This document shows, piece by piece, positions 1-41,500 of a stretch of 64,000 nucleotides of DNA (its first letter is position 1; the number at the start of each line of letters is the position of its first letter). The DNA is taken from NCBI GenBank assembly GCA_032718475.1, contig JAUCBJ010003650.1, forward strand, positions 103,317 through 167,316, in the 5' to 3' direction. The notes below the pieces were generated by a model, which saw nothing but the letters and a program-made list of their open reading frames with translations, was not told the DNA's origin and made no database searches. A program made the translations under genes and the position numbers. The DNA is from Nemertoderma westbladi (Eukaryota; Animalia; Xenacoelomorpha).

Positions 1-3000
1 GGACTGGTACAGCAAACTCACCTACAATAGGGAGATAAAGTTAAAGTATATTGGGTAGAAGTAGATGGGAGGGACTGGTACAGCAAACTCACCTACAATA
101 GATAAAGTTTAAAGTATATTGGGTAGAAGTAGATGGGAGGGACTGGTACAGCAAACTCACCTACAATAGGGAGATAAAGTTAAAGTATATTGGGTAGAAG
201 TAGATGGGAGGGACTGGTACAGCAAACTCACCTACAATAGGGAGATAAAGTTAAAGTATATTGGGTCGGAGTAGATGGGAGGGACTGGTACAGCAAACTC
301 ACCTACAATAGATAAAGTTAAAGTATATTGGGTGGGAGTAGATGGGAGGGACTGGTACAGCAAACTCACCTACAATAGGGAGATAAAGTTAAAGTATATT
401 GGGTAGGAGTAGATGGGAGGGACTGGTACAGCAAACTCACCTACAATAGATAAAGTTTAAAGTATATTGGGTGGGAGTAGATGGGAGGGACTGGTACAGC
501 AAACTCACCTACAATAGATAAAGTTAAAGTATATTGGGTAGGAGTAGATGGGAGGGACTGGTACAGCAAACTCACCTACAATAGGGAGATAAAGTTAAAG
601 TATATTGGGTAGGAGTAGATGGGAGGGACTGGTACAGCAAACTCACCTACAATAGATAAAGTTAAAGTATATTGGGTAGGAGTACATGGGAGGGACTGGT
701 ACAGCAAACTCACCTACAATAGATAAAGTTAAATTATATTGGGTGGGAGTAGATGGGAGGGACTGGTACAGCAAACTCACCTACAATAGATAAAGTTAAA
801 TTATATTGGGTAGGAGTAGATGGGAGGGACTGGTACAGCAAACTCACCTACAATAGATAAAGTTAAAGTACATTGGGTAGGAGTAGATGGGAGGGACTGG
901 TACAGCAAACTCACCTACAATAGGGAGATAAAGTTAAAGTATATTGGGTAGGAGTAGATGGGATGGACTGGTACAGCAAACTCACCTACAATAGATAAAG
1001 TTAAATTATATTGGGTAGGAGTAGATGGGAGGGACTGGTACAGCAAACTCACCTACAATAGATAAAGTTAAAGTATATTGGGTAGGAGTAGATGGGTGGG
1101 ACTGGTACAGCAAACTCACCTACAATAGGGAGATAAAGTTAAAGTATATTGGGTAGGAGTAGATGGGAGGGACTGGTACAGCAAACTCACCTACAATAGA
1201 TAAAGTTAAAGTATATTGGGTAGGAGTAGATGGGTGGGACTGGTACAGCAAACTCACCTACAATAGGGAGATAAAGTTAAAGTATATTGGGTAGGAGTAG
1301 ATGGGAGGGACTGGTACAGCAAACTCACCTACAATAGATAAAGTTAAAGTATATTGGGTAGGAGTAGATGGGAGGGACTGGTACAGCAAACTCACCTACA
1401 ATAGATAAAGTTAAAGTATATTGGGTAGGAGTAGATGGGAGGGACTGGTACAGCAAACTCACCTACAATAGATAAATTTAAAGTATATTGGGTAGGAGTA
1501 GATGGGAGGGACTGGTACAGCAAACTCACCTACAATAGATAAAGTTAAAGTATATTGGGTAGGAGTAGATGGGTGGGACTGGTACAGCAAACTCACCTAC
1601 AATAGGGAGATAAAGTTAAAGTATATTGGGTAGGAGTAGATGGGAGGGACTGGTACAGCAAACTCACCTACAATAGATAAAGTTAAAGTATATTGGGTAG
1701 GAGTAGATGGGTGGGACTGGTACAGCAAACTCACCTACAATAGATAAAGTTAAAGTATATTGGGTAGGAGTAGATGGGAGGGACTGGTACAGCAAACTCA
1801 CCTACAATAGATAAAGTTAAAGTATATTGGGTAGGAGTACATGGGAGGGACTGGTACAGCAAACTCACCTACAATAGATAAAGTTAAATTATATTGGGTG
1901 GGAGTAGATGGGAGGGACTGGTACAGCAAACTCACCTACAATAGATAAAGTTAAATTATATTGGGTAGGAGTAGATGGGAGGGACTGGTACAGCAAACTC
2001 ACCTACAATAGATAAAGTTAAAGTACATTGGGTAGGAGTAGATGGGAGGGACTGGTACAGCAAACTCACCTACAATAGGGAGATAAATTTAAAGTATATT
2101 GGGTAGGAGTAGATGGGAGGGACTGGTACAGCAAACTCACCTACAATAGATAAAGTTAAAGTATATTGGGTAGGAGTAGATGGGTGGGACTGGTACAGCA
2201 AACTCACCTACAATAGGGAGATAAAGTTAAAGTATATTGGGTAGGAGTAGATGGGAGGGACTGGTACAGCAAACTCACCTACAATAGATAAAGTTAAAGT
2301 ATATTGGGTAGGAGTAGATGGGTGGGACTGGTACAGCAAACTCACCTACAATAGATAAAGTTAAAGTATATTGGGTAGGAGTAGATGGGAGGGACTGGTA
2401 CAGCAAACTCACCTACAATAGATAAAGTTAAAGTATATTGGGTAGGAGTACATGGGAGGGACTGGTACAGCAAACTCACCTACAATAGATAAAGTTAAAT
2501 TATATTGGGTGGGAGTAGATGGGAGGGACTGGTACAGCAAACTCACCTACAATAGATAAAGTTAAATTATATTGGGTAGGAGTAGATGGGAGGGACTGGT
2601 ACAGCAAACTCACCTACAATAGATAAAGTTAAAGTACATTGGGTAGGAGTAGATGGGAGGGACTGGTACAGCAAACTCACCTACAATAGGGAGATAAAGT
2701 TAAAGTATATTGGGTAGGAGTAGATGGGAGGGACTGGTACAGCAAACTCACCTACAATAGATAAAGTTAAATTATATTGGGTAGGAGTAGATGGGAGGGA
2801 CTGGTACAGCAAACTCACCTACAATAGATAAAGTTAAAGTATATTGGGTAGGAGTAGATGGGTGGGACTGGTACAGCAAACTCACCTACAATAGGGAGAT
2901 AAAGTTAAAGTATATTGGGTAGGAGTAGATGGGAGGGACTGGTACAGCAAACTCACCTACAATAGATAAAGTTAAAGTATATTGGGTAGGAGTAGATGGG

Positions 3001-6000
3001 TGGGACTGGTACAGCAAACTCACCTACAATAGGGAGATAAAGTTAAAGTATATTGGGTAGGAGTAGATGGGAGGGACTGGTACAGCAAACTCACCTACAA
3101 TAGATAAAGTTAAAGTATATTGGGTAGGAGTAGATGGGAGGGACTGGTACAGCAAACTCACCTACAATAGATAAAGTTAAAGTATATTGGGTAGGAGTAG
3201 ATGGGAGGGACTGGTACAGCAAACTCACCTACAATAGATAAAGTTAAAGTATATTGGGTAGGAGTAGATGGGAGGGACTGGTACAGCAAACTCACCTACA
3301 ATAGATAAAGTTAAAGTATATTGGGTAGGAGTAGATGGGTGGGACTGGTACAGCAAACTCACCTACAATAGGGAGATAAAGTTAAAGTATATTGGGTAGG
3401 AGTAGATGGGAGGGACTGGTACAGCAAACTCACCTACAATAGATAAAGTTAAAGTATATTGGGTAGGAGTAGATGGGTGGGACTGGTACAGCAAACTCAC
3501 CTACAATAGGAGATAAAGTTAAAGTATATTGGGTAGGAGTAGATGGGAGGGACTGGTACAGCAAACTCACCTACAATAGATAAAGTTAAAGTATATTGGG
3601 TAGGAGTAGATGGGAGGGACTGGTACAGCAAACTCACCTACAATAGATAAAGTTAAAGTATATTGGGTAGGAGTAGATGGGAGGGACTGGTACAGCAAAC
3701 TCACCTACAATAGATAAAGTTAAAGTATATTGGGTAGGAGTAGATGGGAGGGACTGGTACAGCAAACTCACCTACAATAGATAAAGTTAAAGTATATTGG
3801 GTAGGAGTAGATGGGAGGGACTGGTACAGCAAACTCACCTACAATAGATAAAGTTAAAGTATATTGGGTAGGAGTAGATGGGAGGGACTGGTACAGCAAA
3901 CTCACCTACAATAGATAAAGTTAAAGTATATTGGGTAGGAGTAGATGGGAGGGACTGGTACAGCAAACTCACCTACAATAGATAAAGTTAAAGTATATTG
4001 GGTAGGAGTAGATGGGAGGGACTGGTACAGCAAACTCACCTACAATAGGGAGATAAAGTTAAAGTATATTGGGTAGGAGTAGATGGGAGGGACTGGTACA
4101 GCAAACTCACCTACAATAGATAAAGTTAAAGTATATTGGGTAGGAGTAGATGGGAGGGACTGGTACAGCAAACTCACCTACAATAGATAAAGTTAAAGTA
4201 TATTGGGTAGGAGTAGATGGGAGGGACTGGTACAGCAAACTCACCTACAATAGATAAAGTTAAAGTATATTGGGTAGGAGTAGATGGGAGGGACTGGTAC
4301 AGCAAACTCACCTACAATAGATAAAGTTAAAGTATATTGGGTGGGAGTAGATGGGTGGGACTGGTACAGCAAACTCACCTACAATAGATAAAGTTAAAGT
4401 ATATTGGGTAGGAGTAGATGGGAGGGACTGGTACAGCAAACTCACCTACAATAGATAAAGTTAAAGTACATTGGGTAGGAGTAGATGGGAGGGACTGGTA
4501 CAGCAAACTCACCTACAATAGGGAGATAAAGTTAAAGTATATTGGGTAGGAGTAGATGGGAGGGACTGGTACAGCAAACTCACCTACAATAGATAAAGTT
4601 AAAGTACATTGGGTAGGAGTTGATGGGAGGGACTGGTACAGCAAACTCACCTACAATAGATAAAGTTAAAGTATATTGGGTAGGAGTAGATGGGATGGAC
4701 TGGTACAGCAAACTCACCTACAATAGATAAAGTTAAAGTACATTGGGTAGGAGTAGATGGGAGGGACTGGTACAGCAAACTCACCTACAATAGGGAGATA
4801 AAGTTAAAGTATATTGGGTAGAAGTAGATGGGAGGGACTGGTACAGCAAACTCACCTACAATAGATAAAGTTTAAAGTATATTGGGTAGAAGTAGATGGG
4901 AGGGACTGGTACAGCAAACTCACCTACAATAGGGAGATAAAGTTAAAGTATATTGGGTAGAAGTAGATGGGAGGGACTGGTACAGCAAACTCACCTACAA
5001 TAGGGAGATAAAGTTAAAGTATATTGGGTCGGAGTAGATGGGAGGGACTGGTACAGCAAACTCACCTACAATAGATAAAGTTAAAGTATATTGGGTGGGA
5101 GTAGATGGGAGGGACTGGTACAGCAAACTCACCTACAATAGGGAGATAAAGTTAAAGTATATTGGGTAGGAGTAGATGGGAGGGACTGGTACAGCAAACT
5201 CACCTACAATAGATAAAGTTTAAAGTATATTGGGTGGGAGTAGATGGGAGGGACTGGTACAGCAAACTCACCTACAATAGATAAAGTTAAAGTATATTGG
5301 GTAGGAGTAGATGGGAGGGACTGGTACAGCAAACTCACCTACAATAGGGAGATAAAGTTAAAGTATATTGGGTAGGAGTAGATGGGAGGGACTGGTACAG
5401 CAAACTCACCTACAATAGATAAAGTTAAAGTATATTGGGTAGGAGTACATGGGAGGGACTGGTACAGCAAACTCACCTACAATAGATAAAGTTAAATTAT
5501 ATTGGGTGGGAGTAGATGGGAGGGACTGGTACAGCAAACTCACCTACAATAGATAAAGTTAAATTATATTGGGTAGGAGTAGATGGGAGGGACTGGTACA
5601 GCAAACTCACCTACAATAGATAAAGTTAAAGTACATTGGGTAGGAGTAGATGGGAGGGACTGGTACAGCAAACTCACCTACAATAGGGAGATAAAGTTAA
5701 AGTATATTGGGTAGGAGTATATGGGATGGACTGGTACAGCAAACTCACCTACAATAGATAAAGTTAAAGTACATTGGGTAGGAGTAGATGGGAGGGACTG
5801 GTACAGCAAACTCACCTACAATAGGGAGATAAAGTTAAAGTATATTGGGTAGAAGTAGATGGGAGGGACTGGTACAGCAAACTCACCTACAATAGATAAA
5901 GTTTAAAGTATATTGGGTAGAAGTAGATGGGAGGGACTGGTACAGCAAACTCACCTACAATAGGGAGATAAAGTTAAAGTATATTGGGTAGAAGTAGATG

Positions 6001-9000
6001 GGAGGGACTGGTACAGCAAACTCACCTACAATAGGGAGATAAAGTTAAAGTATATTGGGTCGGAGTAGATGGGAGGGACTGGTACAGCAAACTCACCTAC
6101 AATAGATAAAGTTAAAGTATATTGGGTGGGAGTAGATGGGAGGGACTGGTACAGCAAACTCACCTACAATAGGGAGATAAAGTTAAAGTATATTGGGTAG
6201 GAGTAGATGGGAAGGACTGGTACAGCAAACTCACCTACAATAGATAAAGTTTAAAGTATATTGGGTGGGAGTAGATGGGAGGGACTGGTACAGCAAACTC
6301 ACCTACAATAGATAAAGTTAAAGTATATTGGGTAGGAGTAGATGGGAGGGACTGGTACAGCAAACTCACCTACAATAGGGAGATAAAGTTAAAGTATATT
6401 GGGTAGGAGTAGATGGGAGGGACTGGTACAGCAAACTCACCTACAATAGATAAAGTTAAAGTATATTGGGTAGGAGTACATGGGAGGGACTGGTACAGCA
6501 AACTCACCTACAATAGATAAAGTTAAATTATATTGGGTGGGAGTAGATGGGAGGGACTGGTACAGCAAACTCACCTACAATAGATAAAGTTAAATTATAT
6601 TGGGTAGGAGTAGATGGGAGGGACTGGTACAGCAAACTCACCTACAATAGATAAAGTTAAAGTATATTGGGTAGGAGTAGATGGGTGGGACTGGTACAGC
6701 AAACTCACCTACAATAGGGAGATAAAGTTAAAGTATATTGGGTAGGAGTAGATGGGAGGGACTGGTACAGCAAACTCACCTACAATAGATAAAGTTAAAG
6801 TATATTGGGTAGGAGTAGATGGGAGGGACGGTACAGCAAACTCACCTACAATAGGGAGATAAAGTTAAAGTATATTGGGTAGGAGTAGATGGGAGGGACT
6901 GGTACAGCAAACTCACCTACAATAGATAAATTTAAAGTATATTGGGTAGGAGTAGATGAGAGGGACTGGTACAGCAAACTCACCTACAATAGATAAAGTT
7001 AAAGTATATTGGGTAGGAGTAGATGGGAGGGACTGGTACAGCAAACTCACCTACAATAGATAAAGTTAAAGTATATTGGGTAGGAGTAGATGGGAGGGAC
7101 TGGTACAGCAAACTCACCTACAATAGATAAAGTTAAAGTATATTGGGTAGGAGTAGATGGGAGGGACTGGTACAGCAAACTCACCTACAATAGATAAAGT
7201 TAAAGTATATTGGGTAGGAGTAGATGGGAGGGACTGGTACAGCAAACTCACCTACAATAGATAAAGTTAAAGTATATTGGGTAGGAGTAGATGGGAGGGA
7301 CTGGTACAGCAAACTCACCTACAATAGGGAGATAAAGTTAAAGTATATTGGGTAGGAGTAGATGGGAGGGACTGGTACAGCAAACTCACCTACAATAGAT
7401 AAAGTTAAAGTATATTGGGTAGGAGTAGATGGGAGGGACTGGTACAGCAAACTCACCTACAATAGATAAAGTTAAAGTATATTGGGTAGGAGTAGATGGG
7501 AGGGACTGGTACAGCAAACTCACCTACAATAGATAAAGTTAAATTATATTGGGTAGGAGTAGATGGGAGGGACTGGTACAGCAAACTCACCTACAATAGA
7601 TAAAGTTAAAGTATATTGGGTGGGAGTAGATGGGTGGGACTGGTACAGCAAACTCACCTACAATAGATAAAGTTAAAGTATATTGGGTAGGAGTAGATGG
7701 GAGGGACTGGTACAGCAAACTCACCTACAATAGATAAAGTTAAAGTACATTGGGTAGGAGTAGATGGGAGGGACTGGTACAGCAAACTCACCTACAATAG
7801 GGAGATAAAGTTAAAGTATATTGGGTAGGAGTAGATGGGAGGGACTGGTACAGCAAACTCACCTACAATAGATAAAGTTAAAGTACATTGGGTAGGAGTA
7901 GATGGGAGGGACTGGTACAGCAAACTCACCTACAATAGGGAGATAAAGTTAAAGTATATTGGGTAGGAGTAGATGGGTGGGACTGGTACAGCAAACTCAC
8001 CTACAATAGATAAAGTTAAAGTATATTGGGTAGGAGTAGATGGGAGGGACTGGTACAGCAAACTCACCTACAATAGATAAAGTTAAAGTATATTGGGTAG
8101 GAGTAGATGGGTGGGACTGGTACAGCAAACTCACCTACAATAGATAAAGTTAAAGTATATTGGGTGGGAGTAGATGGTTGGGACTGGTACAGCAAACTCA
8201 CCTACAATAGATAAAGTTAAAGTATATTGGGTAGGAGTAGATGGGAGGGACTGGTACAGCAAACTCACCTACAATAGGGAGATAAAGTTAAAGTATATTG
8301 GGTAGGAGTAGATGGGAGGGACTGGTACAGCAAACTCACCTACAATAGATAAAGTTAAAGTATATTGGGTAGGAGTAGATGGGAGGGACTGGTACAGCAA
8401 ACTCACCTACAATAGGGAGATAAAGTTAAAGTATATTGGGTAGGAGTAGATGGGAGGGACTGGTACAGCAAACTCACCTACAATAGGGAGATAAAGTTAA
8501 AGTATATTGGGTAGGAGTAGATGGGTAGGGACTGGTACAGCAAACTCACCTACAATAGGGAGATAAAGTTAAAGTATATTGGGTAGGAGTAGATGGGAGG
8601 GACTGGTACAGCAAACTCACCTACAATAGATAAAGTTAAAGTATATTGGGTAGGAGTAGATGGGAGGGACTGGTACAGCAAACTCACCTACAATAGATAA
8701 AGTTAAAGTATATTGGGTAGGAGTAGATGGGAGGGACTGGTACAGCAAACTCACCTACAATAGATAAAGTTAAAGTATATTGGGTAGGAGTAGATGGGAG
8801 GGAATGGTACAGCAAACTCACCTACAATAGGGAGATAAAGTTAAAGTATATTGGGTAGGAGTAGATGGGAGGGACTGGTACAGCAAACTCACCTACAATA
8901 GATAAAGTTAAAGTATATTGGGTCGGAGTAGATGGGAGGGACTGGTACAGCAAACTCACCTACAATAGGGAGATAAAGTTAAAGTATATTGGGTAGGAGT

Positions 9001-12000
9001 AGATGGGAGGGACTGGTACAGCAAACTCACCTACAATAGATAAAGTTAAAGTATATTGGGTGGGAGTAGATGGGAGGGACTGGTACAGCAAACTCACCTA
9101 CAATAGATAAAGTTAAAGTATATTGGGTGGGAGTAGATGGGAGGGACTGGTACAGCAAACTCACCTACAATAGATAAAGTTAAAGTATATTGGGTAGGAG
9201 TAGATGGGAGGGACTGGTACAGCAAACTCACCTACAATAGATAAAGTTAAAGTATATTGGGTGGGAGTAGATGGGAGGGACTGGTACAGCAAACTCACCT
9301 ACAATAGATAAAGTTAAAGTATATTGGGTAGGAGTAGATGGGAGGGACTGGTACAGCAAACTCACCTACAATAGATAAAGTTAAAGTATATTGGGTAGGA
9401 GTAGATGGGTGGGACTGGTACAGCAAACTCACCTACAATAGATAAAGTTAAAGTATATTGGGTAGGAGTAGATGGGAGGGACTGGTACAGCAAACTCACC
9501 TACAATAGATAAAGTTAAAGTATATTGGGTGGGAGTAGATGGGAGGGACTGGTACAGCAAACTCACCTACAATAGATAAAGTTAAAGTATATTGGGTAGG
9601 AGTAGATGGGAGGGACTGGTACAGCAAACTCACCTACAATAGATAAAGTTAAAGTATATTGGGTAGGAGTAGATGGGAGGGACTGGTACAGCAAACTCAC
9701 CTACAATAGATAAAGTTAAAGTATATTGGGTAGGAGTAGATGGGAGGGACTGGTACAGCAAACTCACCTACAATAGATAAAGTTAAAGTATATTGGGTAG
9801 GAGTAGATGGGAGGGACTGGTACAGCAAACTCACCTACAATAGATAAAGTTAAAGTATATTGGGTAGGAGTAGATGGGAGGGACTGGTACAGCAAACTCA
9901 CCTACAATAGATAAAGTTAAAGTATATTGGGTGGGAGTAGATGGGAGGGACTGGTACAGCAAACTCACCTACAATAGATAAAGTTAAAGTATATTGGGTG
10001 GGAGTAGATGGGAGGGACTGGTACAGCAAACTCACCTACAATAGATAAAGTTAAAGTATATTGGGTAGGAGTAGATGGGAGGGACTGGTACAGCAAACTC
10101 ACCTACAATAGATAAAGTTAAAGTATATTGGGTAGGAGTAGATGGGAGGGACTGGTACAGCAAACTCACCTACAATAGATAAAGTTAAAGTATATTGGGT
10201 AGGAGTAGATGGGAGGGACTGGTACAGCAAACTCACCTACAATAGATAAAGTTAAAGTATATTGGGTGGGAGTAGATGGGAGGGACTGGTACAGCAAACT
10301 CACCTACAATAGATAAAGTTAAAGTATATTGGGTAGGAGTAGATGGGAGGGACTGGTACAGCAAACTCACCTACAATAGATAAAGTTAAAGTATATTGGG
10401 TAGGAGTAGATGGGAGGGACTGGTACAGCAAACTCACCTACAATAGATAAAGTTAAAGTATATTGGGTAGGAGTAGATGGGAGGGACTGGTACAGCAAAC
10501 TCACCTACAATAGATAAAGTTAAAGTATATTGGGTAGGAGTAGATGGGTGGGACTGGTACAGCAAACTCACCTACAATAGATAAAGTTAAAGTATATTGG
10601 GTAGGAGTAGATGGGAGGGACTGGTACAGCAAACTCACCTACAATAGATAAAGTTAAAGTATATTGGGTAGGAGTAGATGGGAGGGACTGGTACAGCAAA
10701 CTCACCTACAATAGGGAGATAAAGTTAAAGTATATTGGGTGGGAGTAGATGGGAGGGACTGGTACAGCAAACTCACCTACAATAGATAAAGTTAAAGTAT
10801 ATTGGGTGGGAGTAGATGGGAGGGACTGGTACAGCAAACTCACCTACAATAGATAAAGTTAAAGTATATTGGGTAGGAGTAGATGGGAGGGACTGGTACA
10901 GCAAACTCACCTACAATAGATAAAGTTAAAGTATATTGGGTAGGAGTAGATGGGAGGGACTGGTACAGCAAACTCACCTACAATAGATAAAGTTAAAGTA
11001 TATTGGGTAGGAGTAGATGGGAGGGACTGGTACAGCAAACTCACCTACAATAGATAAAGTTAAAGTATATTGGGTAGGAGTAGATGGGAGGGACTGGTAC
11101 AGCAAACTCACCTACAATAGATAAAGTTAAAGTATATTGGGTAGGAGTAGATGGGAGGGACTGGTACAGCAAACTCACCTACAATAGATAAAGTTAAAGT
11201 ATATTGGGTAGGAGTAGATGGGAGGGACTGGTACAGCAAACTCACCTACAATAGATAAAGTTAAAGTATATTGGGTAGGAGTAGATGGGAGGGACTGGTA
11301 CAGCAAACTCACCTACAATAGATAAAGTTAAAGTATATTGGGTGGGAGTAGGTGGGAGGGACTGGTTCAGCAAACTCACCTACAATAGATAAAGTTAAAG
11401 TATATTGGGTAGGAGTAGATGGGAGGGACTGGTACAGCAAACTCACCTACAATAGATAAAGTTAAAGTATATTGGATGGGAGTAGGTGGGAGGGACTGGT
11501 TCAGCAAACTCACCTACAATAGATAAAGTTAAAGTATATTGGGTAGGAGTAGATGGGTGGGACTGGTACAGCAAACTCACCTACAATAGGGAGATAAAGT
11601 TAAAGTATATTGGGTAGGAGTAGATGGGAGGGACTGGTACAGCAAACTCACCTACAATAGATAAAGTTAAATTATATTGGGTAGGAGTAGATGGGAGGGA
11701 CTGGTACAGCAAACTCACCTACAATAGATAAAGTTAAAGTATATTGGGTAGGAGTAGATGGGAGGGACTGGTACAGCAAACTCACCTACAATAGATAAAG
11801 TTAAAGTATATTGGGTAGGAGTAGATGGGTGGGACTGGTACAGCAAACTCACCTACAATAGGGAGATAAAGTTAAAGTATATTGGGTAGAAGTAGATGGG
11901 AGGGACTGGTACAGCAAACTCACCTACAATAGATAAAGTTAAATTATATTGGGTAGGAGTAGATGGGAGGGACTGGTACAGCAAACTCACCTACAATAGG

Positions 12001-14456
12001 GAGATAAAGTTAAAGTATATTGGGTAGAAGTAGATGGGAGGGACTGGTACAGCAAACTCACCTACAATAGATAAAGTTAAATTATATTGGGTAGGAGTAG
12101 ATGGGAGGGACTGGTACAGCAAACTCACCTACAATAGATAAAGTTAAAGTATATTGGGTAGGAGTAGATGGGAGGGACTGGTACAGCAAACTCACCTACA
12201 ATAGATAAAGTTAAAGTATATTGGGTAGGAGTAGATGGGTGGGACTGGTACAGCAAACTCACCTACAATAGGGAGATAAAGTTAAAGTATATTGGGTAGA
12301 AGTAGATGGGAGGGACTGGTACAGCAAACTCACCTACAATAGATAAAGTTAAATTATATTGGGTAGGAGTAGATGGGAGGGACTGCTACAGCAAACTCAC
12401 CTACAATAGATAAAGTTAAAGTATATTGGGTAGGAGTAGATGGGAGGGACTGGTACAGCAAACTCACTTACAATAGGGAGATAAAGTTAAAGTATATTGG
12501 GTAGGAGTAGATGGGAGGGACTGGTACAGCAAACTCACCTACAATAGATAAAGTTAAATTATATTGGGTAGGAGTAGATGGGAGGGACTGGTACAGCAAA
12601 CTCACCTACAATAGATAAAGTTAAAGTATATTGGGTAGGAGTAGATTGGAGGGACTGGTACAGCAAACTCACCTACAATAGGGAGATAAAGTTAAAGTAT
12701 ATTGGGTAGGAGTAGATGGGAGGGACTGGTACAGCAAACTCACCTACAATAGATAAAGTTAAAGTATATTGGGTGGGAGTAGATGGGAGGGACTGGTACA
12801 GCAAACTCACCTACAATAGATAAAGTTAAAGTATATTGGGTGGGAGTAGATGGGAGGGACTGGTACAGCAAACTCACCTACAATAGATAAAGTTAAAGTA
12901 TATTGGGTGGGAGTAGATGGGAGGGACTGGTACAGCAAACTCACCTACAATAGATAAAGTTAAAGTATATTGGGTAGAAGTAGATGGGAGGGACTGGTAC
13001 AGCAAACTCACCTACAATAGATAAAGTTAAAGTATATTGGGTGGGAGTAGATGGGAGGGACTGGTACAGCAAACTCACCTACAATAGATAAAGTTAAATT
13101 ATATTGGGTAGGAGTAGATGGGAGGGACTGGTACAGCAAACTCACCTACAATAGATAAAGTTAAAGTATATTGGGTAGGAGTAGATGGGAGGGACTGGTA
13201 CAGCAAACTCACCTACAATAGATAAAGTTAAAGTATATTGGGTAGAAGTAGATGGGAGGGACTGGTACAGCAAACTCACCTACAATAGATAAAGTTAAAG
13301 TATATTGGGTAGGAGTAGATGGGAGGGACTGGTACAGCAAACTCACCTACAATAGGGAGATAAAGTTAAAGTATATTGGGTAGGAGTAGATGGGAGGGAC
13401 TGGTACAGCAAACTCACCTACAATAGATAAAGTTAAAGTATATTGGGTAGGAGTAGATGGGAGGGACTGGTACAGCAAACTCACCTACAATAGATAAAGT
13501 TAAATTATATTGGGTAGGAGTAGATGGGAGGGACTGGTACAGCAAACTCACCTACAATAGATAAAGTTAAAGTATATTGGGTAGGAGTAGATGGGAGGGA
13601 CTGGTACAGCAAACTCACCTACAATAGATAAAGTTAAAGTATATTGGGTAGAAGTAGATGGGAGGGACTGGTACAGCAAACTCACCTACAATAGATAAAG
13701 TTAAATTATATTGGGTAGGAGTAGATGGGAGGGACTGGTACAGCAAACTCACCTACAATAGATAAAGTTAAAGTATATTGGGTAGGAGTAGATGGGAGGG
13801 ACTGGTACAGCAAACTCACCTACAATAGATAAAGTTAAAGTATATTGGGTAGGAGTAGATGGGAGGGACTGGTACAGCAAACTCACCTACAATAGATAAA
13901 GTTAAAGTATATTGGGTAGGAGTAGATGGGAGGGACTGGTACAGCAAACTCACCTACAATAGGGAGATAAAGTTAAAGTATATTGGGTAGAAGTAGATGG
14001 GAGGGACTGGTACAGCAAACTCACCTACAATAGATAAAGTTAAATTATATTGGGTAGGAGTAGATGGGAGGGACTGGTACAGCAAACTCACCTACAATAG
14101 GGAGATAAAGTTAAAGTATATTGGGTAGGAGTAGATGGGAGGGACTGGTACAGCAAACTCACCTACAATAGATAAAGTTAAAGTATATTGGGTAGGAGTA
14201 GATGGGAGGGACTGGTACAGCAAACTCACCTACAATAGGGAGATAAAGTTAAAGTATATTGGGTAGGAGTAGATGGGAGGGTCTGGTACAGCAAACTCAC
14301 CTACAATAGGGAGATAAAGTTAAAGTACCGGGTATATTGGGTAGGAGTAGATGGGAGGGACTGGTACAGCAAACTCACCTACAATAGATAAAGTTAAAGT
14401 ATATTGGGTAGGAGTAGATGGGAGGGACTGGTACAGCAAACTCACCTACAATAGGG
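1..14456 (-). repeat. Intronic 67/71-bp tandem array (>200 copies, continues off the left edge) made of the NF-kB 3' splice site plus the first 47 nt of the next exon
   Basis: Minus-strand unit GTGAGTTTGCTGTACCAGTCCCTCCCATCTACTCCTACCCAATATACTTTAACTTTATCTATTGTAG (67 nt; the 71-nt variant ends TCTCCCTATTGTAG). The first 47 nt translate as (G)EFAVPVPPIYSYPIY, continuing the Rel homology domain. Confidence 0.97.
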
Positions 14457-14523
14457 ATTTTTTTCGCTGTTTTATATTTTTTGAAAGTTTCGTGACAGAA
14501 AACAAGTTTTACATCCATCTCAC

Positions 14524-15262
14524 CTGTCGTTGGATCCCTTAGGAACGCTTGGAACTGCATCCTCACGCAGTTTAGATCCATCCTCTCACTTTCCCGCACA
14601 ATTTCCTCGTCAACAGCCTCCAGTTGACATCGACTCAACTGCGCCCCGTTGCGTTCAGACCCCCCATAAATCCCGTGCCACTTCGCGCGTAACGCATCCG
14701 CCACCTCCTTCCGCTTTATATGTTTAATACCGAGTCCGCAGAAACTTGCGGATCCTGAGTTAGTCGCAACGTCCACAAAACAAACTCCGTCCTCTACGAT
14801 ACAGAGTCCCGGTGACTTACTTCCTAGTAGCGTGTACGCGTGGAGTCTAGGGGGTTCATCTTTAGTTACCAAGGTAACGCCAACCCTCGCGTCGCCAATG
14901 TGTCCGCGTAGTACGACAGTCGGGTATGTTTTGTTTTTCTTTGTAGAGGAAACGCCTTGCAGACATCCGTGTGAAGGTCCTTCGCAGTCATAACGGAATC
15001 GGAATGTAGTCTGCGGTTGTTCTAGTATCTCTAGATAGGGTTGCCGCGGTACCGGTATGTATGAGCAGCTTGCTACCGGTTCCCGCTGGGTTATTGTTTC
15101 ATTGTTTACGGGTTGCTCCATGATCGGAGGCGGACCCATCTCTCCGTCGCTGTTGGGGGTTGAGTCGCCGGCCATATCCTCGAAGCAACCCGGGAAATCC
15201 GTGTCGAAGAGAATATCTAGGATAGAGGGTTGATCGGGATTCGTATTTTCGCAGTTCGCCAT
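14524..15262 (-). CDS. NFKB: NF-kB (p50/p52-like class) Rel homology domain protein, first coding exon; rest of gene lies left of the window
   Basis: Motifs PYLEILEQP, FRFRYDCEGPSHGCLQG, KTYPTV, LHAYTL, GLGIKH and MDLNCVRMQFQAFL. ATG at 15262 (the ORF track starts at an upstream GTG). Donor CAG|GTGAGA at 14524/14523. Splicing to an array acceptor gives FLRDPTTGEFAVPVPPIYSYPIY, aligning with the p105 segment [22 protein letters not shown] as I recall it. Confidence 0.93.
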
Positions 15263-17420
15263 CTCCACACCGTTGGGCGGTGAATATTAAACGACAAAGC
15301 AGAAGGACAGAGCCAGAGGAGAAAGATAAAATCATCTGCACAATAATCTGATAATATCGCCACGATCGTGTAAGAAAATGTTACGGTTATTGATACCGGT
15401 ATCTGGGTATTTACAATTCTTGCATAAAACCTGAAAACTGTAAAAACTAAAATTAAAGGACTCTCTGCTCTCCTCTCAGCCTCTCTCTCTCTGTCTGTAC
15501 TGCTAACTAACTCTGTCAGTCTGTAACTGCTCTTACAATACTGCAATACAGCAGTCAGTCAATTCAGTTCACAGTTAGTTACAGGTGTACTGCAGTATCG
15601 TTAGATTTTGTATTGGCAGTGAGGGGCGAGCCACGAAGTGAGCGAAGCCTTATTAGCATATGGGTGCCATTAACGAGTTGTCTGTCGTCGTCTCGTCGTC
15701 TGGTGTCGTAAATTAACTTGAATGGCCCTAGTTAGTAGATTTACAAATGATAGTTAAAGCGTGCAAGGGAAAAAAGGAAATTACCTCTGTTTTTACAACA
15801 AGTTTATCGCAAACTGATGCATCGCCATCACTCATATAAATATATTTTGGGAAACACCAAACACGGTTTTCGTATATCTAATAGAGATTAGTTAGTATCA
15901 ACAATACTTTCTATTATATGCTCCCGTGCTGCTCGAAGGTCCCACGGACGTGTTGATTTAACTTATAATACATGAATACTACTACAGTACACTGTATGAC
16001 CTACTGTACAACACGTTCGTATGACTAAAAGTACTTAGTAAGAATGATTGAAAACTGTCATACTCATAACGAAAATCGAAAACGTTTACATATATATAGT
16101 AACAATTTAATTTGAAAAATCGGCTTTTCCTCACAAATAATTTAAACAATGAGTGAATTAATCTAACCTTTTCACAGATATTCCAGAAAATTAGTTCAAA
16201 AGGATAATTATTCGATAAGAAAGAGAAAGAGTAAAATGCCACTATTTCACTACCTTTCTGTTTAGAGAAATTCAGCTTTTCATTTCAATTCATTCTAGAT
16301 ATTCCCAACTCGTGAAAACTCAACACACGACGGGCAGAATATATGAATTTTTAAATAAATGGAAAATAATGTTTTCCGTTGTTTTTAAATTGAATAAATT
16401 TTATTTACTTTATTATTTATATTTTATTTGAGAAAAATATCACCAGCGTTTATCACTGTATCCTTAGCTTTCATACAGTCATAGGAAGAATCACTGAAAA
16501 CATCCTCATCTTCAAACCAAGGGTGATAATATTTCAAGAAATGTAAATACAAGCAACCTAGTAGGTAGGTAAATAGTATAAACATATCCTTTACTATTAA
16601 ACAATAATTACGCTAAATTAAGTTACCACTATAAGTAAATTATAGTCGAAAAGTGAAAAGTGCAATGTACAGAACTTCCATCGGGTATTGTAAACAACGT
16701 CCAATGAGACCATACAGAAGTTGCAAATATATTAGAAATCGGGATGGGTGGAGTAACAATAATCATAATTTTAGTTTATACTTAACGCTAAGGTTGGTAT
16801 GCGTAATAATGCTTAAAATTGATTACAATTTCTAATCAGTACTCATTTTCAGACGTTGGTTGGGTATGGGACCAAGTATGGGACGCCGTTTTGGTCAATA
16901 ATACAAAACTTATTATTATATACAGTATAACTAAAAATAAGAGATATTAAGAAGTTTTTTTCTTCAAAAAAGTTATAATACCAATCATTTTTTTCTTCAC
17001 TGCTTGGGCCAAAAATAGCTGAGAGGGAAATTTGAATTATCATTTTCCATATACTGTATTTACCTAGCAATTATTAGCATATCATACCTATCACCTATGT
17101 GTGTAATTAATTATTGTGCGTGTGAATGATGTACCGGTACTGTATTACCGGTAGAAGTTGACTATATTCTTTGCATTGGGAAGGGAAATAAAAGTAAGGC
17201 TCTACTGTAAGGACAGAAGGACCCTTTCCACCTTCAGCCAGTCTGCCAGTGCTGCAGAGCAGTACTGTGCAATAGTGCTTGCTTATACAGTTACAGTATA
17301 TGAATTGTGAGGACAGGAGGATTTCATGTTCCAATAAACTAAATAAACTGAATAAACTACGGACTGACAGGTAAATCTAGAAATTTGGTAGGCAGTCTAT
17401 AGGCCTAATGAATAAAAAAA

Positions 17421-18524
17421 ATGGCGAACATTACGTCAGTAACTGTGTGCAACACAACTAATATTTGCTTTGAAGTTTTCCAATTCTGGTTGGATGGCTT
17501 AACAATGGAGGAGGCAACAAAGAAACGTCTTGGATCCTTTACCCTTCCCCTTATTCACGGTCCGCTCTCCACTCAAGAACTATTGCTAAGGGACATCAGC
17601 GACCACTACAATACCTACCGATTCCTGGAGCCGTTTCTACAGCAACCAACTAAACTATCCAATCAGATTATCATACAAATACAAGCGACTCAACAGAAGC
17701 AGATAATAGATAGATATTACGGGTTTGACGCGATTGCAGCCCGCGAGATGTTGGGAAAGAAGATGTCTTTGAAATATCGTAAAGATTTGGACGATGTCAG
17801 CGATAAAACCGGAGTCAGGTTAAAGTCATGCCGAAGGCAGTTCGACAACTTCAGACGGGTTTATCGCGTAGTAGAAGACATGGAGGGCTCTTTGGTGGAC
17901 AACATCCGGAAACATTTCCTTCTATCCGAGGAACTCGGAACAAAATACGCCGCCATCGTGTTCCTCGCGAATTCCCGATTCGAAACATCTAAAAAGAAGT
18001 TAACTTATTTATCGCTTCACGACTTTATTTACTGCGCAAATTTAATGATTAATAACTGGACTTTTGGGGCGAGTTATTCGACAGCAGAAGATATGGATGT
18101 CGACCTTGACAGGGAGTTTCTACAGGACCTCAGGGATTTGAGAGCTCTTCTAGAAAAAGAGACTGCAGACAACCATAAATTCGCTTTAATATTTCTTTTA
18201 AAAAGGAAGAAAGTTTCAGATGAAGTTCTTAACGATATAGATAGCAACTACAAGGGGTTGTCTAGAGCTCTAGTTACCATAGCATCAGGGTTGGTACACA
18301 GCAGGGAAGTTAAAGATTTCTTCATTGACGTGGTCGACAAGATTGTGGACGTATTTAGGAACTGCAGATGGAGTCGCGAGTTCATAGTGACCTTTATGGA
18401 TGGCTATGTAGCAGCCATGTCTACTATGGAAGGTCCGTTGTCAAGGGAACATGGATTAATTAAGGTGGCCGACCGGTATATCAACACTTTGAAGCTTTGT
18501 ATATTGGCCATGTATCACATATAG
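17421..18524 (+). CDS. FIBP: Acidic fibroblast growth factor intracellular-binding protein, single coding exon
   Basis: 367-aa ORF with FIBP motifs REMLGKKMS, KDLDDVSDKTGVRLKSCRRQFDNFRRV, YAAIVFLANSRFETSKKKL and DMDVDLDREFLQDL. Confidence 0.93.
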   Translation: MANITSVTVCNTTNICFEVFQFWLDGLTMEEATKKRLGSFTLPLIHGPLSTQELLLRDISDHYNTYRFLEPFLQQPTKLSNQIIIQIQATQQKQIIDRYYGFDAIAAREMLGKKMSLKYRKDLDDVSDKTGVRLKSCRRQFDNFRRVYRVVEDMEGSLVDNIRKHFLLSEELGTKYAAIVFLANSRFETSKKKLTYLSLHDFIYCANLMINNWTFGASYSTAEDMDVDLDREFLQDLRDLRALLEKETADNHKFALIFLLKRKKVSDEVLNDIDSNYKGLSRALVTIASGLVHSREVKDFFIDVVDKIVDVFRNCRWSREFIVTFMDGYVAAMSTMEGPLSREHGLIKVADRYINTLKLCILAMYHI

Positions 18525-35534: not shown

Positions 35535-38500
35535 TCACACAGGGGTTATTGTGTTAGAGGAATTTCTTCCTCCCTTCCAATCGATGTTCTCCGTTCCGGG
35601 GGTGTTTATTCCGCTCGTTCCGTCGGTAGGAACTCTTAGACTCCCTTGGGAGTCGCCATGGGCACCGGGTTGGTTCCGCCGACGGCCGCTAGCGGCGCGC
35701 GCAGAGCGACCGGCCACGCTGAGACGACGGGATATGTCTTCCGGGGCCGTAGACAGGTTGGCGCCGCTGGTGATAAGTTCCCCGAAGCCGGGGGTGTGCG
35801 AGTAGGCGTAGCCGGTGCGAACGGAGGCCCGGCGGGTGGAGGGGCGACTGGTAAACGCCCGTCGGACCGCGAGCTGAAAGGAAAACAATCGATTAATACG
35901 AACCGGAGAATTTCGTCAAATGAGTTTTTTATGGGTCGTAATTTGACGGCGTCTTTCAGCTAAAATATTATATTATCGAAGGAACTTAAGATACAATATT
36001 TTCTGGGAACCATCCCAATAGATTCAAAATTCGATGTTGTCAAAAATAGATTCGAGATTCCAAAACTCAAACTCTCATCACCTGAACCCTAATAATTTGA
36101 CATATTTTATAAGCATTAATGAGGCACCTTTTACATGCGGATCTGTAAATCCAATTGACATGAAATTTTAGACCTCCTACAAAATTTCGAGCGGTACAAG
36201 TTGAAACCTTAAAAAAAACTTAAAAAAAAAAATTTTTTTTCAAAATTACTCCCATGAACCAATACCTGAAGAAATATGTAACATTTCAGGTTCCACTTGT
36301 ACAGATCGAAATTCTGTATAAGGTCTAAAATTTCATGGCAATTGGATTTACAGTTCTTAAAATTTGCGATTTCAAACTCGAACAAAATTCGAAACTCGGA
36401 TTTTGAATTAATTGGGATGGTTTCCACAAAATATTGAAAACAAATTTGTGTCGAATCTAAAAACTTAAAAAAGATATGAATATTAATGATATGAAATGCG
36501 CTGAAATGCATCAAGTAGCTTTTCGCATGCATCCTATACTTTCTGCCGAAACTGTATTGCCAATATGTAAAGAGGACACAGACAGACACAGTATAATAAT
36601 TACATAGAAATTATCAAGTGTATTCAATATTCAGTTCCGATTAGAAACAACCATGTTCAATTAATTGATACAATTGTTTGATATTAAATCTTGAAACGTT
36701 GAAGGATTCAAAATGAACGACCTCAATGTGTCATCAGCTGATCTGAAGAAATGAACGCCTGTGGTATCACCATGGGGATGCGGACAAACTGTTAGTAATA
36801 ACAGACACCAATGGGAACGTGCACGAACTGCTGGTCGGGCTCGGGCCCATGAGCTAACTACCACAGGCTCCGAGCTATAGCTACCACGGTCTCCCAGCTA
36901 GCTACCACGGTCCCCCATCTAGCTACCACGGTCCCCCATCTAGCTACCACGATCCCCCAGCTAGCTACCACGGCCCTAGCTACCACGATCCCCCAGCTAG
37001 CTACCACGGCCCCCCAGCTAGCTACCGCGGTCCCCGAACTAGCTAACACGGATCCCCAGCTAGCTACCACGGCCCCAGAGCTAGCTACCACGGTCTCCCA
37101 GCTAGCTACCACGGTCCCCCATCTAGCTACCACGGTCCCCCAGCTAGCTACCACGGCCCTAGCTACCACGATCCCCCAGCTAGCTACCACGGCCCCCCAG
37201 CTAGCTACCGCGGTCCCCGAACTAGCTAACACGGATCCCCAGCTAGCTACCACGGCCCCACAGCTAGCTACCACGGTCCCCCAGCTAGCTACCACGGCCC
37301 TAGCTACCACGGTCCCCCAGCTAGCTACCACGGCCCCCCAGCTAGCTACCGCGGTCCCCGAACTAGCTACCACGGTCCCCCATCTAGCTACCCGGTCCCG
37401 GAACTAGCTACCACGGTCCCCCAGCTAGCTACCACGGTCCCTGAACTAGCTACCACGGTCCCCCAGCTAGCTACCACGGCCCTAGCTACCACGGTCCCCC
37501 ATCTAGCTACCACGGGCCCGGAACTAGCTACCACGGTCCCCCAGCTAGCTACCACAGTCCCCCAGCTAGCTAACACGGATCCCCAGGTAGCTACCACGGT
37601 CCCCAGCTAGCTACCGCGGTCTCCCAGCTAGCTACCACAGTCCCCCAGTTAGCTAACACGGATCCCCAGCTAGCTACCACGGTCCCCCATCTAGCTACCA
37701 CGGTCTCCCAGCTAGCTACCACGGATCCCCAGCTAGCTACCACGGTCCCCCAGCTAGCTACCACGGTCCCCGAACTAGCTACCACGGTCCCCCAGCTAGC
37801 TACCACGGTCTCCCAGCTAGCTACCACGGTCCCCGAACTAGCTACCACGGCCCCGCAGCTAGCTACCACGGCCCTAGCTACCACGGTCCCCCAGCTAGCT
37901 ACCACGGCCCCCCAGCTAGCTACCGCGGTCCCCGAACTAGCTACCACGGTCCCCCATCTAGCTACCCGGTCCCGGAACTAGCTACCACGGTCCCCCAGCT
38001 AGCTACCACGGTCCCTGAACTAGCTACCACGGTCCCCCAGCTAGCTACCACGGCCCTAGCTACCACGGTCCCCCATCTAGCTACCACGGTCCCGGAACTA
38101 GCTACCACGGTCCCCCAGCTAGCTACCACAGTCCCCCAGCTAGCTAACACGGATCCCCAGGTAGCTACCACGGTCCCCAGCTAGCTACCGCGGTCTCCCA
38201 GCTAGCTACCACAGTCCCCCAGTTAGCTAACACGGATCCCCAGCTAGCTACCACGGTCCCCCATCTAGCTACCACGGTCTCCCAGCTAGCTACCACGGAT
38301 CCCCAGCTAGCTACCACGGTCCCCCAGCTAGCTACCACGGTCCCCGAACTAGCTACCACGGTCGCCCAGCTAGCTACCACGGTCTCCCAGCTAGCTACCA
38401 CGGTCCCCGAACTAGCTACCACGGCCCCGCAGCTAGCTACCGCGGTCTCCCAGCTAGCTACCGCGGTCTCCCAGCTAGCTACCCCGGTCCCGAAACTAGC

Positions 38501-41500
38501 TACCACGGTCCCCCAGCTAGCTACCACGGATCCCCAGCTAGCTACCACGGTTCCCGAACTTGCTACCACGGTCCCCAGCTAGCTACCGCGGTCCCCCAAC
38601 TAGCTACCGCGGTCCCCGAACTAGCTACCACGGTCCCCCATTTAGCTACCACGGTCTCCCAGCTAGCTACCACGGATCCCCAGCTAGCTACCACGGCCCT
38701 AGCTACCCCGGTCCCGAAACTAGCTACAACGGTCCCCCGGCTAGCTACCACGGTCCCCCAGCTAGCTACCACGGTCCCCCAGTTAGCTAACACGGATCCC
38801 CAGCTAGCTACCACGGCCCTAGCTACCACGATCCCCCAGCTAGCTACCACGGTCCATCAGCTAGCTACCCCAGGCCCAGAGCTATAGTTATCACGGTCCC
38901 CCAGCTAGCTACCACGTTCCCCCAGCTATCTACCACGGTCCCCGAACTAGCTACCACTGACACCGGTCTAGCTGTCTAAAATTGTGCGAAAAGTATTACA
39001 TTTTGCGCCCCAAATAGGTTAATCCAAACTGTAACAACCACAAATCCGCAAATCGATTAAAAATGGACAAAATTTATTATACTCCTACAGTTTGCCTTAG
39101 TTCCCACTGGTGTATCCCCGTTGATTGGCCGTTGCTATGCAACGGACAGGGACTTACCTGCACTCTATTTATAGGTCCCTGAAATATTTCCCGAAAATAT
39201 AATCATAATATGTTTAACAGGAATTAATAAAAATGAACAAAATTATAGTTATGCCGGAGTGTTAGTGTTAGTGTTAATGAACCCCATTCTGACTGTGTCA
39301 GCAGTATTTCCACCCAGGTTGTACATAATTGCATTAAACCCAAATCAGGGTTGCCCTTGTCACTCTTTTTCAGTTTAAATTGCCCCTTTATATTTAGAGA
39401 TGTCAGGAAATGGAATGACGAGCGAAGCGAGCAAAACTTTTCTTACACATTTTCTCGGTCGAGGAATTGCTTAGGTATTAAATTAATCGGTTGGATTGCT
39501 TAGGTATTAAATTAATCGGTTGGATTGTTTAGGTATTGAAAGTTAATTTTAATTATTAATATAATAAATACATTTTATAAAAGTATTTATAGATAAGTTT
39601 TCATACGAAGAATAGCAGACATGTGTGGGGCCTTCGCGCAGGAAGAAACGTAATCTTTAAGCGTATCATACGGGTTCCACTAATTCAAACGGTGGCTAAT
39701 ATAGTCACCCTCTAGCGGGGGACTGGAAAACTGCTAAATCTTCCACGCAAATCATATGTCAGACTTTTGATAAACTATACATGCTGTATCAAGTGTGGTG
39801 AAATGTCATCAAAAATTGACAAGAGTCGTGATTCAAACATTAGGCGACAGACAGACAGTGAGATTGACAGACCGACAGACAATGGTTGAAACAGAGGAAT
39901 CCTAACAATATGCCAAGCTCGCTTATTTAGTGGCTCGCCCCACATTAAATAATTGGTTTAAAACATGGATTACACGGGTAACTATGGTAACTAACCTTCT
40001 TTTTGCTATTTATGTGCCGCAATTCATCCGACAATGTCGGCATACACTCCTGTAGAATCCAACGATGTCCAACCGTTGCCATGGTCACCAAGGAGGTGCA
40101 CAACAGTAAACAAAACCAAAACAGCGGGTCTCGGTACACTCTGTCATGGACACCGTAAAAACTACAAAAAATTTTAATTAATTACAATTATATTAAATTA
40201 ATTGTAATTAACGTTGATGTTTTTCAGCAAGAATGATTAATAAAACAATAAAAAGTCTATATATACGGATAAAAAGAGATTCTAAAAGAGATTCTATTAT
40301 TAAGATCGGCTTGGTCAATAGAAGATAAATGCATTCGAGTATGTTTAATAAGAGAGATTTGATAATGCTATATCAAGCGACCCTATTGGGGCTCGAACTC
40401 GGTACCTGGGTTTCTAACTTCCGGCTAGAAAGTTTGACTAGAAAAGGCCAAAATATGATATCCCACTCCATGGCGAAAAAAATTATTCACCCGTCCTGGT
40501 AGCTCAGTCGTCTTAGGACACCGATGATGATAACCAAAATTTTGAAACCTAGGTACCGGGTTCGAGCCCCAATAGGGTCGGTTGATATTTTTAGCTATGG
40601 AGATCATTACCATATTGTTCTATTACTTACATTATATATTTAATTCACCGTCACTCACCCCACAACAATTCATTTATTATTATTAAAAGAGAGATTTGGT
40701 CGTATGCGACCCAACATACGCACTTACGTTAAATATGTCGGCAACACGTTGAATAACTTTGTTGAGAAGAGAATAGCTTGGACGAGGAAGTAGAGAATAA
40801 TGGAACCCCATATAAACACATGGCTAATCCATGTCCAATACTGGCTGTCCAACGCAATCTAGGGAATATCAGAAATCAGCTATGGATTATATATTTTACG
40901 CCACAATCTGAATGCCACCCCAAATTAGATGATTTCACACCAAAGAAGTTATGTAGAACCAAATATATTTATTTGTAGCACCAAATTACTTCACCAAATT
41001 TTGAATATCCCTCTCACCAAAAACAATTATTCATCCCACAAAAACAATTCTTTCAGCACCAAATATTTTATAGAAAATTTATTTATAAATTCATTCATTA
41101 TTTATTTCCATAAATCAAACAAAATGTTTAATCATATTATACCGACGATAAATTCACCTTACAAATCGATTAAATTAAATTTAAATCATAATTATTGATA
41201 CTGCGCGATAAACTTTATTGAAATTAAAAATTACGGAATCTTTATATCATATTTTACCTCTCATTAGTAAATAAAGTTTTACTTTATTTCCTATGTAAAA
41301 AATAATAATTAATTATAAATCAAATAAACTAAAAAAAAGAACTAAATCCGCTTTTTTATGATATTTAATATATCATTAATAAATTATATCGAAAGATTTG
41401 TATAAAACTTCCACAACTTACCCTTAAGTTTACCACCACCACTAATATTGCAGCGATGTAAGTAGCGAGGCTGTCAGCGTCATTAGCGACGTAACCTTGG

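What the first reader, a model, noticed from the sequence alone, without database searches (positions are those of the whole stretch)
1..14523. NF-kB intron is a ladder of >200 back-to-back 67-nt mini-introns (candidate recursive splicing array)
Seen: each minus-strand unit starts GTGAGT, has a branch-like CTTTAAC and a pyrimidine tract, and ends TGTAG, directly abutting the next GTGAGT (zero-length exons). Removing the unique 78-nt segment 14523-14446 would join exon ...ACAG to GTGAGT and regenerate a consensus donor CAG|GTGAGT. The same would happen after every unit. The unit's first 47 nt are also the expected coding start of exon 2 (GEFAVPVPPIYSYPIY). Retaining any internal unit causes premature termination (first unit: ...FNFIYCR*), giving an NF-kB without its dimerisation domain. 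Inference: only the last copy, outside the window, yields full protein. Array length could act as a delay or dose control on an immune regulator.
Basis: partly seen in the sequence, partly recalled or inferred. Interest (0 to 1): 0.88.

Follow-up and report, generated by a model that had tools for sequence, protein, structure and literature searches.

The report
Giant splice-junction repeat in NF-kB
A 67-base piece spanning an intron/exon border of an animal NF-kB gene has been copied head to tail at least 212 times, yet transcript-like contigs show a correctly spliced message with one copy; it is likely a by-product repeat of the kind known from lancelets as a 'mirage', unusual in that every copy also carries a splice donor and could therefore be cut out stepwise, which is untested.

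Summary
The array is real: 212 complete 66-78-nt units (153 of 67 nt) run from window 14445 to 1. Each is 47 nt of NF-kB exon start plus a 20-24-nt acceptor tail, abutting as TAG|GTGAGT. It is amplified in DNA of two samples. Transcript-like contigs from two studies skip the 78-nt segment, keep one 47-nt copy and continue into D-A-K-S-S, so the gene is intact and spliced. The array is an acceptor-type junction-spanning minisatellite (amphioxus 'mirage'). The neighbouring P4-ATPase carries two more (126 x 28 nt, 55 x 56 nt), so this genome makes such arrays repeatedly. The donor-like GTGAGT is the exon's own Gly-Glu-Phe coding start. Splice signals are not significantly spared from mutation, and units are shorter than all 22 mapped ordinary introns. 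Ratchet-point anatomy is present, but no intermediates could be tested, and single-step and recursive routes give the same mRNA. Nothing supports a timer or dose function. This scan earlier found mirages (up to 105 copies) and mini-intron stacks in other genomes. New variant of a known kind: larger, with composite acceptor/donor junctions, and a good natural test of splice-site choice.

The parts
1..14445 (-). Tandem array of at least 212 units (exon-start 47 nt + acceptor tail 20-24 nt); continues beyond the window
   Evidence: unit words highly amplified in DNA runs X1, X2, X3
14399..14445 (-). Exon-derived 47 nt of unit 1 (reads G-E-F-A-V-P-V-P-P-I-Y-S-Y-P-I-Y); begins GTGAGT
   Evidence: one such copy, with one mismatch, is in contigs of X4 and X5
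14379..14398 (-). Acceptor tail of unit 1: branch-like TTTAAC (A at -16; -20 in 71-nt units), pyrimidine tract, TGTAG
   Evidence: not covered by any contig of X4
14446..14523 (-). Unique 78-nt 5' part of the intron with the genuine donor CAG|GTGAGA; shares only 12 nt with the unit tail; 7-nt direct repeat across both ends
   Evidence: skipped exactly (GT..AG) in X4 and X5, present in X1-X3
14524..15437 (-). NF-kB (p50/p52 class) exon; CDS starts at 15262; intronless Rel homology DNA-binding domain
   Evidence: covered by the X4 contig
15438..15572 (-). 135-nt 5'-UTR intron (GT..AG)
   Evidence: 14 loose letters of the X4 contig match 15573-15586; one contig only
45518..49041 (-). Comparator: acceptor-type junction array, about 126 x 28 nt, in the P4-ATPase; last copy opens the exon at 45535
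56107..59198 (-). Comparator: donor-type junction array, about 55 x 56 nt (43 nt exon + 13 nt intron), in the P4-ATPase; first donor after 59147
35535..59850 (-). P4-ATPase (flippase), 22 exons mapped by hand, 1155 codons open; 5' exons not mapped

Best explanation
The array is a tandem amplification of an NF-kB intron/exon border, and the cell removes all of it to give an mRNA with one copy, likely by choosing the terminal acceptor in one or a few long jumps. Shown: the unit anatomy, amplification in two DNA samples, a mature joint with a single 47-nt copy running on into coding sequence, and two more such arrays next door. Inferred: it arose by local duplication and grew by unequal exchange (a 13-unit block is repeated); only the last copy is followed by unique exon sequence and so is defined as the exon; each junction reads AG|GTGAGT because the exon happens to start with Gly-Glu-Phe codons. 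Any donor-to-downstream-acceptor cut leaves a shorter array of the same form, so a splice to a decoy would likely be rescued by re-splicing. That recursion would be fortuitous, not a selected timer.
For: Mature joint with one copy in X4 (study P3) and X5 (study P2; same sample as DNA runs X2/X3 that carry intron and array). In both contigs the 42-nt piece has one mismatch to unit 1, consistent with a distinct terminal copy being the exon. The three longest arrays of the window all sit on splice junctions; 2 of the 7 other arrays over 500 bp do so, 0.30 expected, P about 0.03. The flippase frame is open using the first donor and the last acceptor of its arrays. No significant sparing of splice signals: 1 of 22 distinct substitutions in 9 core nt, 2.96 expected, P 0.18; 0.40 with base weighting. 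109 of 212 units differ from the consensus 47 nt; 16 of the 20 substitution types there are missense or nonsense. Published mirages do not disturb splicing (PMC3087553, PMC3902484). The EJC suppresses regenerated donors (PMC8184009, PMC8605326).
Against: No data on the route: all routes give the same mRNA. The anatomy fits Drosophila ratchet points well (AG|GT plus a short cryptic exon plus a downstream donor), and the regenerated donor is the best U1 match. Recurrent substitutions leave a 26-nt gap around the junction (P 0.03 uniform, 0.08 base-weighted; post hoc), a weak hint of constraint. X4 and X5 are labelled 'DNA?' by the tool; I infer RNA from exon-only cover and GT-AG joints. The genomic end of the array was not seen. 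The junction enrichment rests on one window and hand-mapped exons.
Confidence: 0.62

Rival explanations
1. Mirage by origin, but removed mainly piecemeal: the spliceosome takes near acceptors as they are transcribed, regenerates CAG|GTGAGT and ratchets along, or cuts internal units out in parallel. Recursion is then the main route and is what lets the array grow this large.
For: 211 of 212 units end in AG and all 212 begin GTGAGT; GTGAGT is 5 of 21 donors in the flippase; unit acceptors have 14-15 of 20 pyrimidines, within the 11-17 range of real ones; regenerated donor 9/11 beats the internal donor 8/11, the direction that favours skipping in the donor-competition model; weak junction-centred gap in variants.
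Against: No intermediate in X4 or X5 contigs (weak, contigs drop rare forms). Units are shorter than every ordinary intron mapped (113-4976 nt; 135 nt). The first acceptor is poor. The same regenerated junction must be reused at decoys but not at the true exon. The 126-copy acceptor array next door is 28 nt per unit, too short for unit-wise removal (recalled minimal sizes), and is tolerated.
Confidence: 0.25
2. A selected delay or dose control on NF-kB, with copy number tuning output.
For: Immune regulator; the array adds at least 14.4 kb, about 6-7 min of transcription at the 45 min per 100 kb quoted in PMC2773006; inclusion of a unit gives a stop.
Against: Any long intron gives that delay; similar arrays lie in a housekeeping flippase; near-identical units (0.89 differences per unit) and repeated blocks indicate recent turnover; no significant signal sparing; no expression or copy-number data.
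Confidence: 0.05
3. The array is a burden: a sizeable share of transcripts keep a 67/71-nt unit as a pseudo-exon (acceptor plus next donor) and are destroyed by nonsense-mediated decay, so only a fraction is productive.
For: Each unit is bounded by an acceptor and a strong downstream donor; 211 of 212 introduce a stop.
Against: Only the correct form assembled in X4 (1 record laid on 14376-15400) and X5; published mirages give no aberrant mRNA. Decayed forms would be invisible to these data.
Confidence: 0.06
4. Assembly artefact, pseudogene, or an intronless allele or retrocopy supplying the mRNA.
For: The array end is not visible; X4 and X5 are not on record as RNA.
Against: Unit words are at tens to hundreds of times flank depth in X1, X2, X3; contigs bridge the unique segment into unit 1; the joined form is absent from those three DNA runs and present in X5 from the same sample as X2/X3; 37 distinct segments with ordered blocks.
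Confidence: 0.02

Closest known systems
Amphioxus 'mirage' minisatellites (Adh3, BflGb6, BflGb9, troponin C, PGBD5). Seen: passages of PMC3087553 and PMC3902484; the original Adh3 paper was not read.
   Same: Tandem copies of an intron 3' end plus exon 5' part (as in BflGb6); unit size within the 10-160 bp reported; many copies keep splice signals; normal mRNA is still made; several per genome.
   Different: At least 212 copies versus 6 and 3 for BflGb6; each junction is a composite acceptor and donor; the host is not amphioxus (FIBP about 50% identical to its best hits, amphioxus and a hemichordate).
Drosophila ratchet points / RS-exons. Seen: introduction and discussion of PMC8605326, passages of PMC2773006 and PMC8184009.
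   Same: AG|GT juxtaposition in a long intron, followed by a short out-of-frame cryptic exon and a downstream donor; the terminal exon starts with a regenerated donor like an expressed RS-exon.
   Different: Known sites are single, conserved across species and shown by intermediates; here there are hundreds of near-identical, repeat-born sites 67 nt apart, with no evidence of use or conservation.
Human F7 intron 7 37-bp VNTR. Seen: abstract and outline of PMC1557585.
   Same: Junction-spanning repeat with identical, functional but silent pseudo-sites.
   Different: Donor type, few copies, first site wins; matches the 56-nt flippase array better than the NF-kB array, where the last acceptor must win.
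Intron gain by tandem duplication at AGGT proto-splice sites. Seen: passages of PMC3443670.
   Same: AG|GT repeated on both sides of the intron; splicing from first to last site restores the frame.
   Different: The unit includes a non-coding acceptor tail and the intron has a unique 78-nt 5' part; age and origin of the intron were not tested.
Stacks of complete mini-introns in Rozella-like fungi
   Same: Head-to-tail GT..AG units with zero-length exons.
   Different: There the unit is a whole intron of the size normal for the organism (about 29 nt, 2-8 units); here 70% of the unit is copied exon and it is shorter than the local introns.

Membership tests
Mirage (junction-spanning minisatellite) | Tandem unit spans an intron/exon boundary | tested here: met
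   47 nt exon + 20-24 nt acceptor tail
Mirage (junction-spanning minisatellite) | Copies keep splice signals | tested here: met
   211 of 212 end in AG
Mirage (junction-spanning minisatellite) | Normal mRNA with a single copy is still made | tested here: met
   contigs of X4 and X5, RNA status inferred
Mirage (junction-spanning minisatellite) | Concerted evolution / turnover within the array | tested here: met
   0.89 differences per unit; 13-unit block at units 130 and 200
Mirage (junction-spanning minisatellite) | Length polymorphism between haplotypes | tested here: inconclusive
   contig depths are not copy numbers and differ about 8-fold between two runs of one sample
Recursive splicing at ratchet points | Juxtaposed acceptor and donor (YAG|GTRAG) within a long intron | tested here: met
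   TAG|GTGAGT at nearly all junctions; intron over 14.5 kb
Recursive splicing at ratchet points | Short cryptic exon with a downstream donor weaker than the regenerated one | tested here: met
   next junction 67 nt on; U1 match 8/11 versus 9/11, a crude count
Recursive splicing at ratchet points | Splicing intermediates, saw-tooth coverage or lariats at the sites | not testable with these tools
   only assembled contigs were available; none held a unit tail in X4
Recursive splicing at ratchet points | Evolutionary conservation of the site | tested here: inconclusive
   no related genome; within-array sparing not significant
Stack of complete mini-introns | Unit equals an ordinary intron of the organism in size and origin | tested here: not met
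   unit 67-71 nt, mostly exon-derived; 22 ordinary introns are 113-4976 nt; small sample
NF-kB (p50/p52 class) | Rel homology DNA-binding domain closest to p100/p105 | tested here: met
   PF00554; top 13 PDB hits p52/p50
NF-kB (p50/p52 class) | IPT/dimerisation domain and ankyrin repeats downstream | tested here: inconclusive
   only 30 letters of the continuation were printed; they resemble the YDSK-A-P linker of homologues

The most novel reading that the evidence does not exclude
A repeat-born ladder of hundreds of identical ratchet points that is actually used: the intron is removed piecemeal, every order of cuts converges on the same mRNA, and this self-correcting architecture is what let a splice-junction minisatellite grow past 14 kb inside an expressed NF-kB gene.
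Probability: 0.25. Interest if true: 0.75.

Novelty: new variant of a known kind. Interest (0 to 1): 0.45.

Why it matters
How a spliceosome picks one site among identical ones is an open question. This locus offers more than 212 near-identical acceptors, each with a strong donor directly behind it, in a gene that still yields correct mRNA. Variant units act as barcodes, so nascent long reads or lariats would show directly whether the cell jumps once, ratchets, or cuts internally. The same window holds a donor-only and a short acceptor array as controls. It also extends mirages far beyond the copy numbers in the papers read. If recursion is not used, it is an extreme but ordinary mirage.

Tried and rejected
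No whole genome is held, so the array end could not be read. No RNA holder was listed; RNA status of X4 and X5 is my inference. Word-index searches for NF-kB relatives found none among 894 and 313 candidates; the full HMMER search found only distant ones, best E 1e-27, 357 at E 1e-10 or better, so no full-length protein of this organism was obtained. The ESM Atlas gave no answer. Copy number from contig depth was rejected: summed depth over flank is about 81 in X2 and 682 in X3, one sample. Unit 1 as a 47-nt micro-exon with its own donor was rejected: no GT follows position 47, and no internal AG|GT exists in the unit. A U12 AT-AC reading of ATATACTTT (consensus recalled) was rejected because the contigs keep all 47 nt. 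Selection on splice signals: core 9 nt and extended 18 nt not significant; a post hoc window (first 13 + last 8 nt) gave P 0.015 uniform, while 15 of 22 substitutions fall in a 23-nt C-rich run. The 63-, 30-, 21-, 20- and 23-nt arrays were not found on junctions; I first misread the 28-nt array as non-junctional and corrected this. Eight literature searches listed no paper on an array of composite AG|GT junctions of this size; the library lacks most subscription journals, and no supplements were read.
Full report
Observation. Window 1-14454 is a tandem array of period 67 (212.4 copies, 95% matches). On the minus strand there are 212 complete units and a 21-nt partial: 153 of 67 nt, 49 of 71, 6 of 68 and four singletons. 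All begin GTGAGT, 211 of 212 end in AG, and 180 of 211 segments hold CTTTAAC. Upstream is an ORF from 15262 with a Rel homology domain whose 13 best solved relatives are p52 or p50. The first 47 nt of the unit are coding: removing 14523-14446 gives a 16-residue spacer between two conserved motifs, against 15-16 in 51 of the 59 homologues that matched the pattern (150 examined) and 42 unspliced.

The array is in DNA and the gene is spliced. Of 8 runs listed, 5 hold the stretch and none is on record as RNA. In X1 (possibly the source), X2 and X3 (one other sample), contigs bridge the unique segment into unit 1 and unit words are at tens to hundreds of times the flank depth. X4 behaves as a transcriptome: it covers NF-kB 14519-15437 and FIBP 17390-18938 but not the unique DNA between, apart from dispersed repeats. 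Its 1411-nt contig skips exactly 78 nt (GT..AG), keeps one 47-nt copy and continues into new sequence that reads D-A-K-S-S-I-S-N-P-L (translated by hand), like the YDSKAP linker of homologues. X5, from the same sample as X2 and X3, has a 911-nt contig with the same joint, one copy and 710 nt of further sequence. The joined form is absent from the three DNA runs, which argues against an intronless allele or retrocopy. In both contigs the 42-nt piece has one mismatch to unit 1 (place not listed), as expected if a distinct terminal copy is the exon. A 135-nt 5'-UTR intron is also indicated.

It is one of three such arrays in the window. A hand-built model of the neighbouring P4-ATPase (family) has 22 exons and 1155 open codons. 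The 56-nt array (55 copies) repeats the last 43 nt of an exon and 13 nt of intron. The 28-nt array (126 copies) repeats an acceptor and exon start, and its last copy opens the real exon. So the three longest arrays all sit on splice junctions. Leaving out the NF-kB array, 2 of 7 arrays over 500 bp are on junctions against 0.30 expected (P about 0.03; one window, 47 junctions assumed). This is the anatomy of amphioxus 'mirages', which keep splice signals and do not disturb splicing (passages of PMC3087553 and PMC3902484). I took the term and these papers from earlier notes of this scan, which also report an annelid array of about 105 acceptor copies (unchecked).

What is different here. The exon starts with GTGAGT, from its Gly-Glu-Phe codons. 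That is uncommon (1 of 22 flippase exons starts with GT, none with GTRAG) and makes every junction a composite acceptor and donor. It matches the Drosophila ratchet-point layout: AG|GT, a short out-of-frame cryptic exon and a downstream donor (PMC8605326 introduction; PMC2773006 passages). U1 matches are 7/11 for the genuine donor, 8/11 for internal donors and 9/11 for the regenerated one (consensus recalled). By logic, any cut from a donor to a downstream acceptor leaves a shorter array of the same form, so single-step, ratcheting and nested removal all end in the same mRNA. The mature joint therefore cannot tell them apart.

Evidence on route and purpose. Against a strict ladder: the acceptor at the end of the 78-nt segment has 9 pyrimidines in 20, below all 22 flippase acceptors (11-17), and shares only 12 nt with the unit tail; units are shorter than the 21 flippase introns (113-4976 nt) and the 135-nt UTR intron; the EJC suppresses regenerated donors in flies and mammals; and the identical junction must not be reused at the true exon. 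For some recursion: strong signals at nearly all junctions, and a 26-nt junction-centred gap in recurrent substitutions (P 0.03 uniform, 0.08 base-weighted). The pre-set tests are not significant (1 of 22 distinct substitutions in 9 core nt, P 0.18 and 0.40; 3 of 22 in 18 nt, P 0.12 and 0.27), with low power; in the 56-nt array 3 of 15 fall in the core, 2.4 expected. Units differ by 0.89 changes on average and a 13-unit block recurs at units 130 and 200, the signature of recent unequal exchange (inference). Nothing here bears positively on a timer or dose role.

Mechanism, with odds. Most likely (0.62): a neutral acceptor-type mirage, removed in one or a few long jumps to the terminal acceptor, with fortuitous re-splicing rescuing splices to decoys; the route is inferred. 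Next (0.25): piecemeal recursion is the main route. Others: pseudo-exon inclusion with decay as a major fate (0.06), selected timer (0.05), artefact or pseudogene (0.02).

Novelty. Member of the mirage kind by the features tested; works possibly like a ratchet-point intron but membership is untested, since intermediates and conservation could not be examined. Eight searches of the held library listed no array of composite junctions at this scale, and the scan had no note on this sequence or place. The organism is an animal without close relatives in the protein collections (FIBP about 50% to its best hits). Verdict: new variant of a known kind, interest 0.45, mainly as a natural test of splice-site choice.

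Noticed in passing
window 45518-49041 (-): In the 28-nt acceptor array of the flippase, 103 of 119 scored junctions have T instead of the exon's G at +1, which creates an overlapping AG/GTAAGT donor-like motif; the real exon copy keeps G.
   Followed up: partly
window 56107-59198 (-): 55-copy donor-type junction array; 53 of 54 split units keep GTGAGT. It is followed in the same intron by a reverse-transcriptase ORF at 54387-56102 (PF00078).
   Followed up: partly
window 14446-14523 (-): The unique 78-nt segment is 26 codons without a stop, has a weak acceptor, and is flanked by a 7-nt direct repeat. Whether it is the whole ancestral intron (with 12 filler nt in the unit) or a ragged array boundary is unexplained.
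   Followed up: partly
window 14524-15262 (-) and 17412-18524 (+): The NF-kB DNA-binding domain and the whole FIBP coding sequence are intronless and lie head to head about 2 kb apart, beside an intron-rich flippase; both are covered by X4 contigs.
   Followed up: no
window 25246-26442 (-): Intronless ORF of up to 398 codons with no Pfam or NCBIfam match for the 367 aa scanned; looks like a real protein; origin not examined.
   Followed up: partly
window 53814-53929: An AACCT microsatellite (23 copies) begins within about 10 nt of a flippase donor site.
   Followed up: no
whole window: Eight arrays over 500 bp cover 26.7 of 64 kb; a dispersed high-copy repeat lies at about 15620-15690, just upstream of the NF-kB 5' exon.
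   Followed up: no
window 39158-39178 (-): Predicted 21-nt micro-exon near the flippase C-terminus, not checked in RNA.
   Followed up: no
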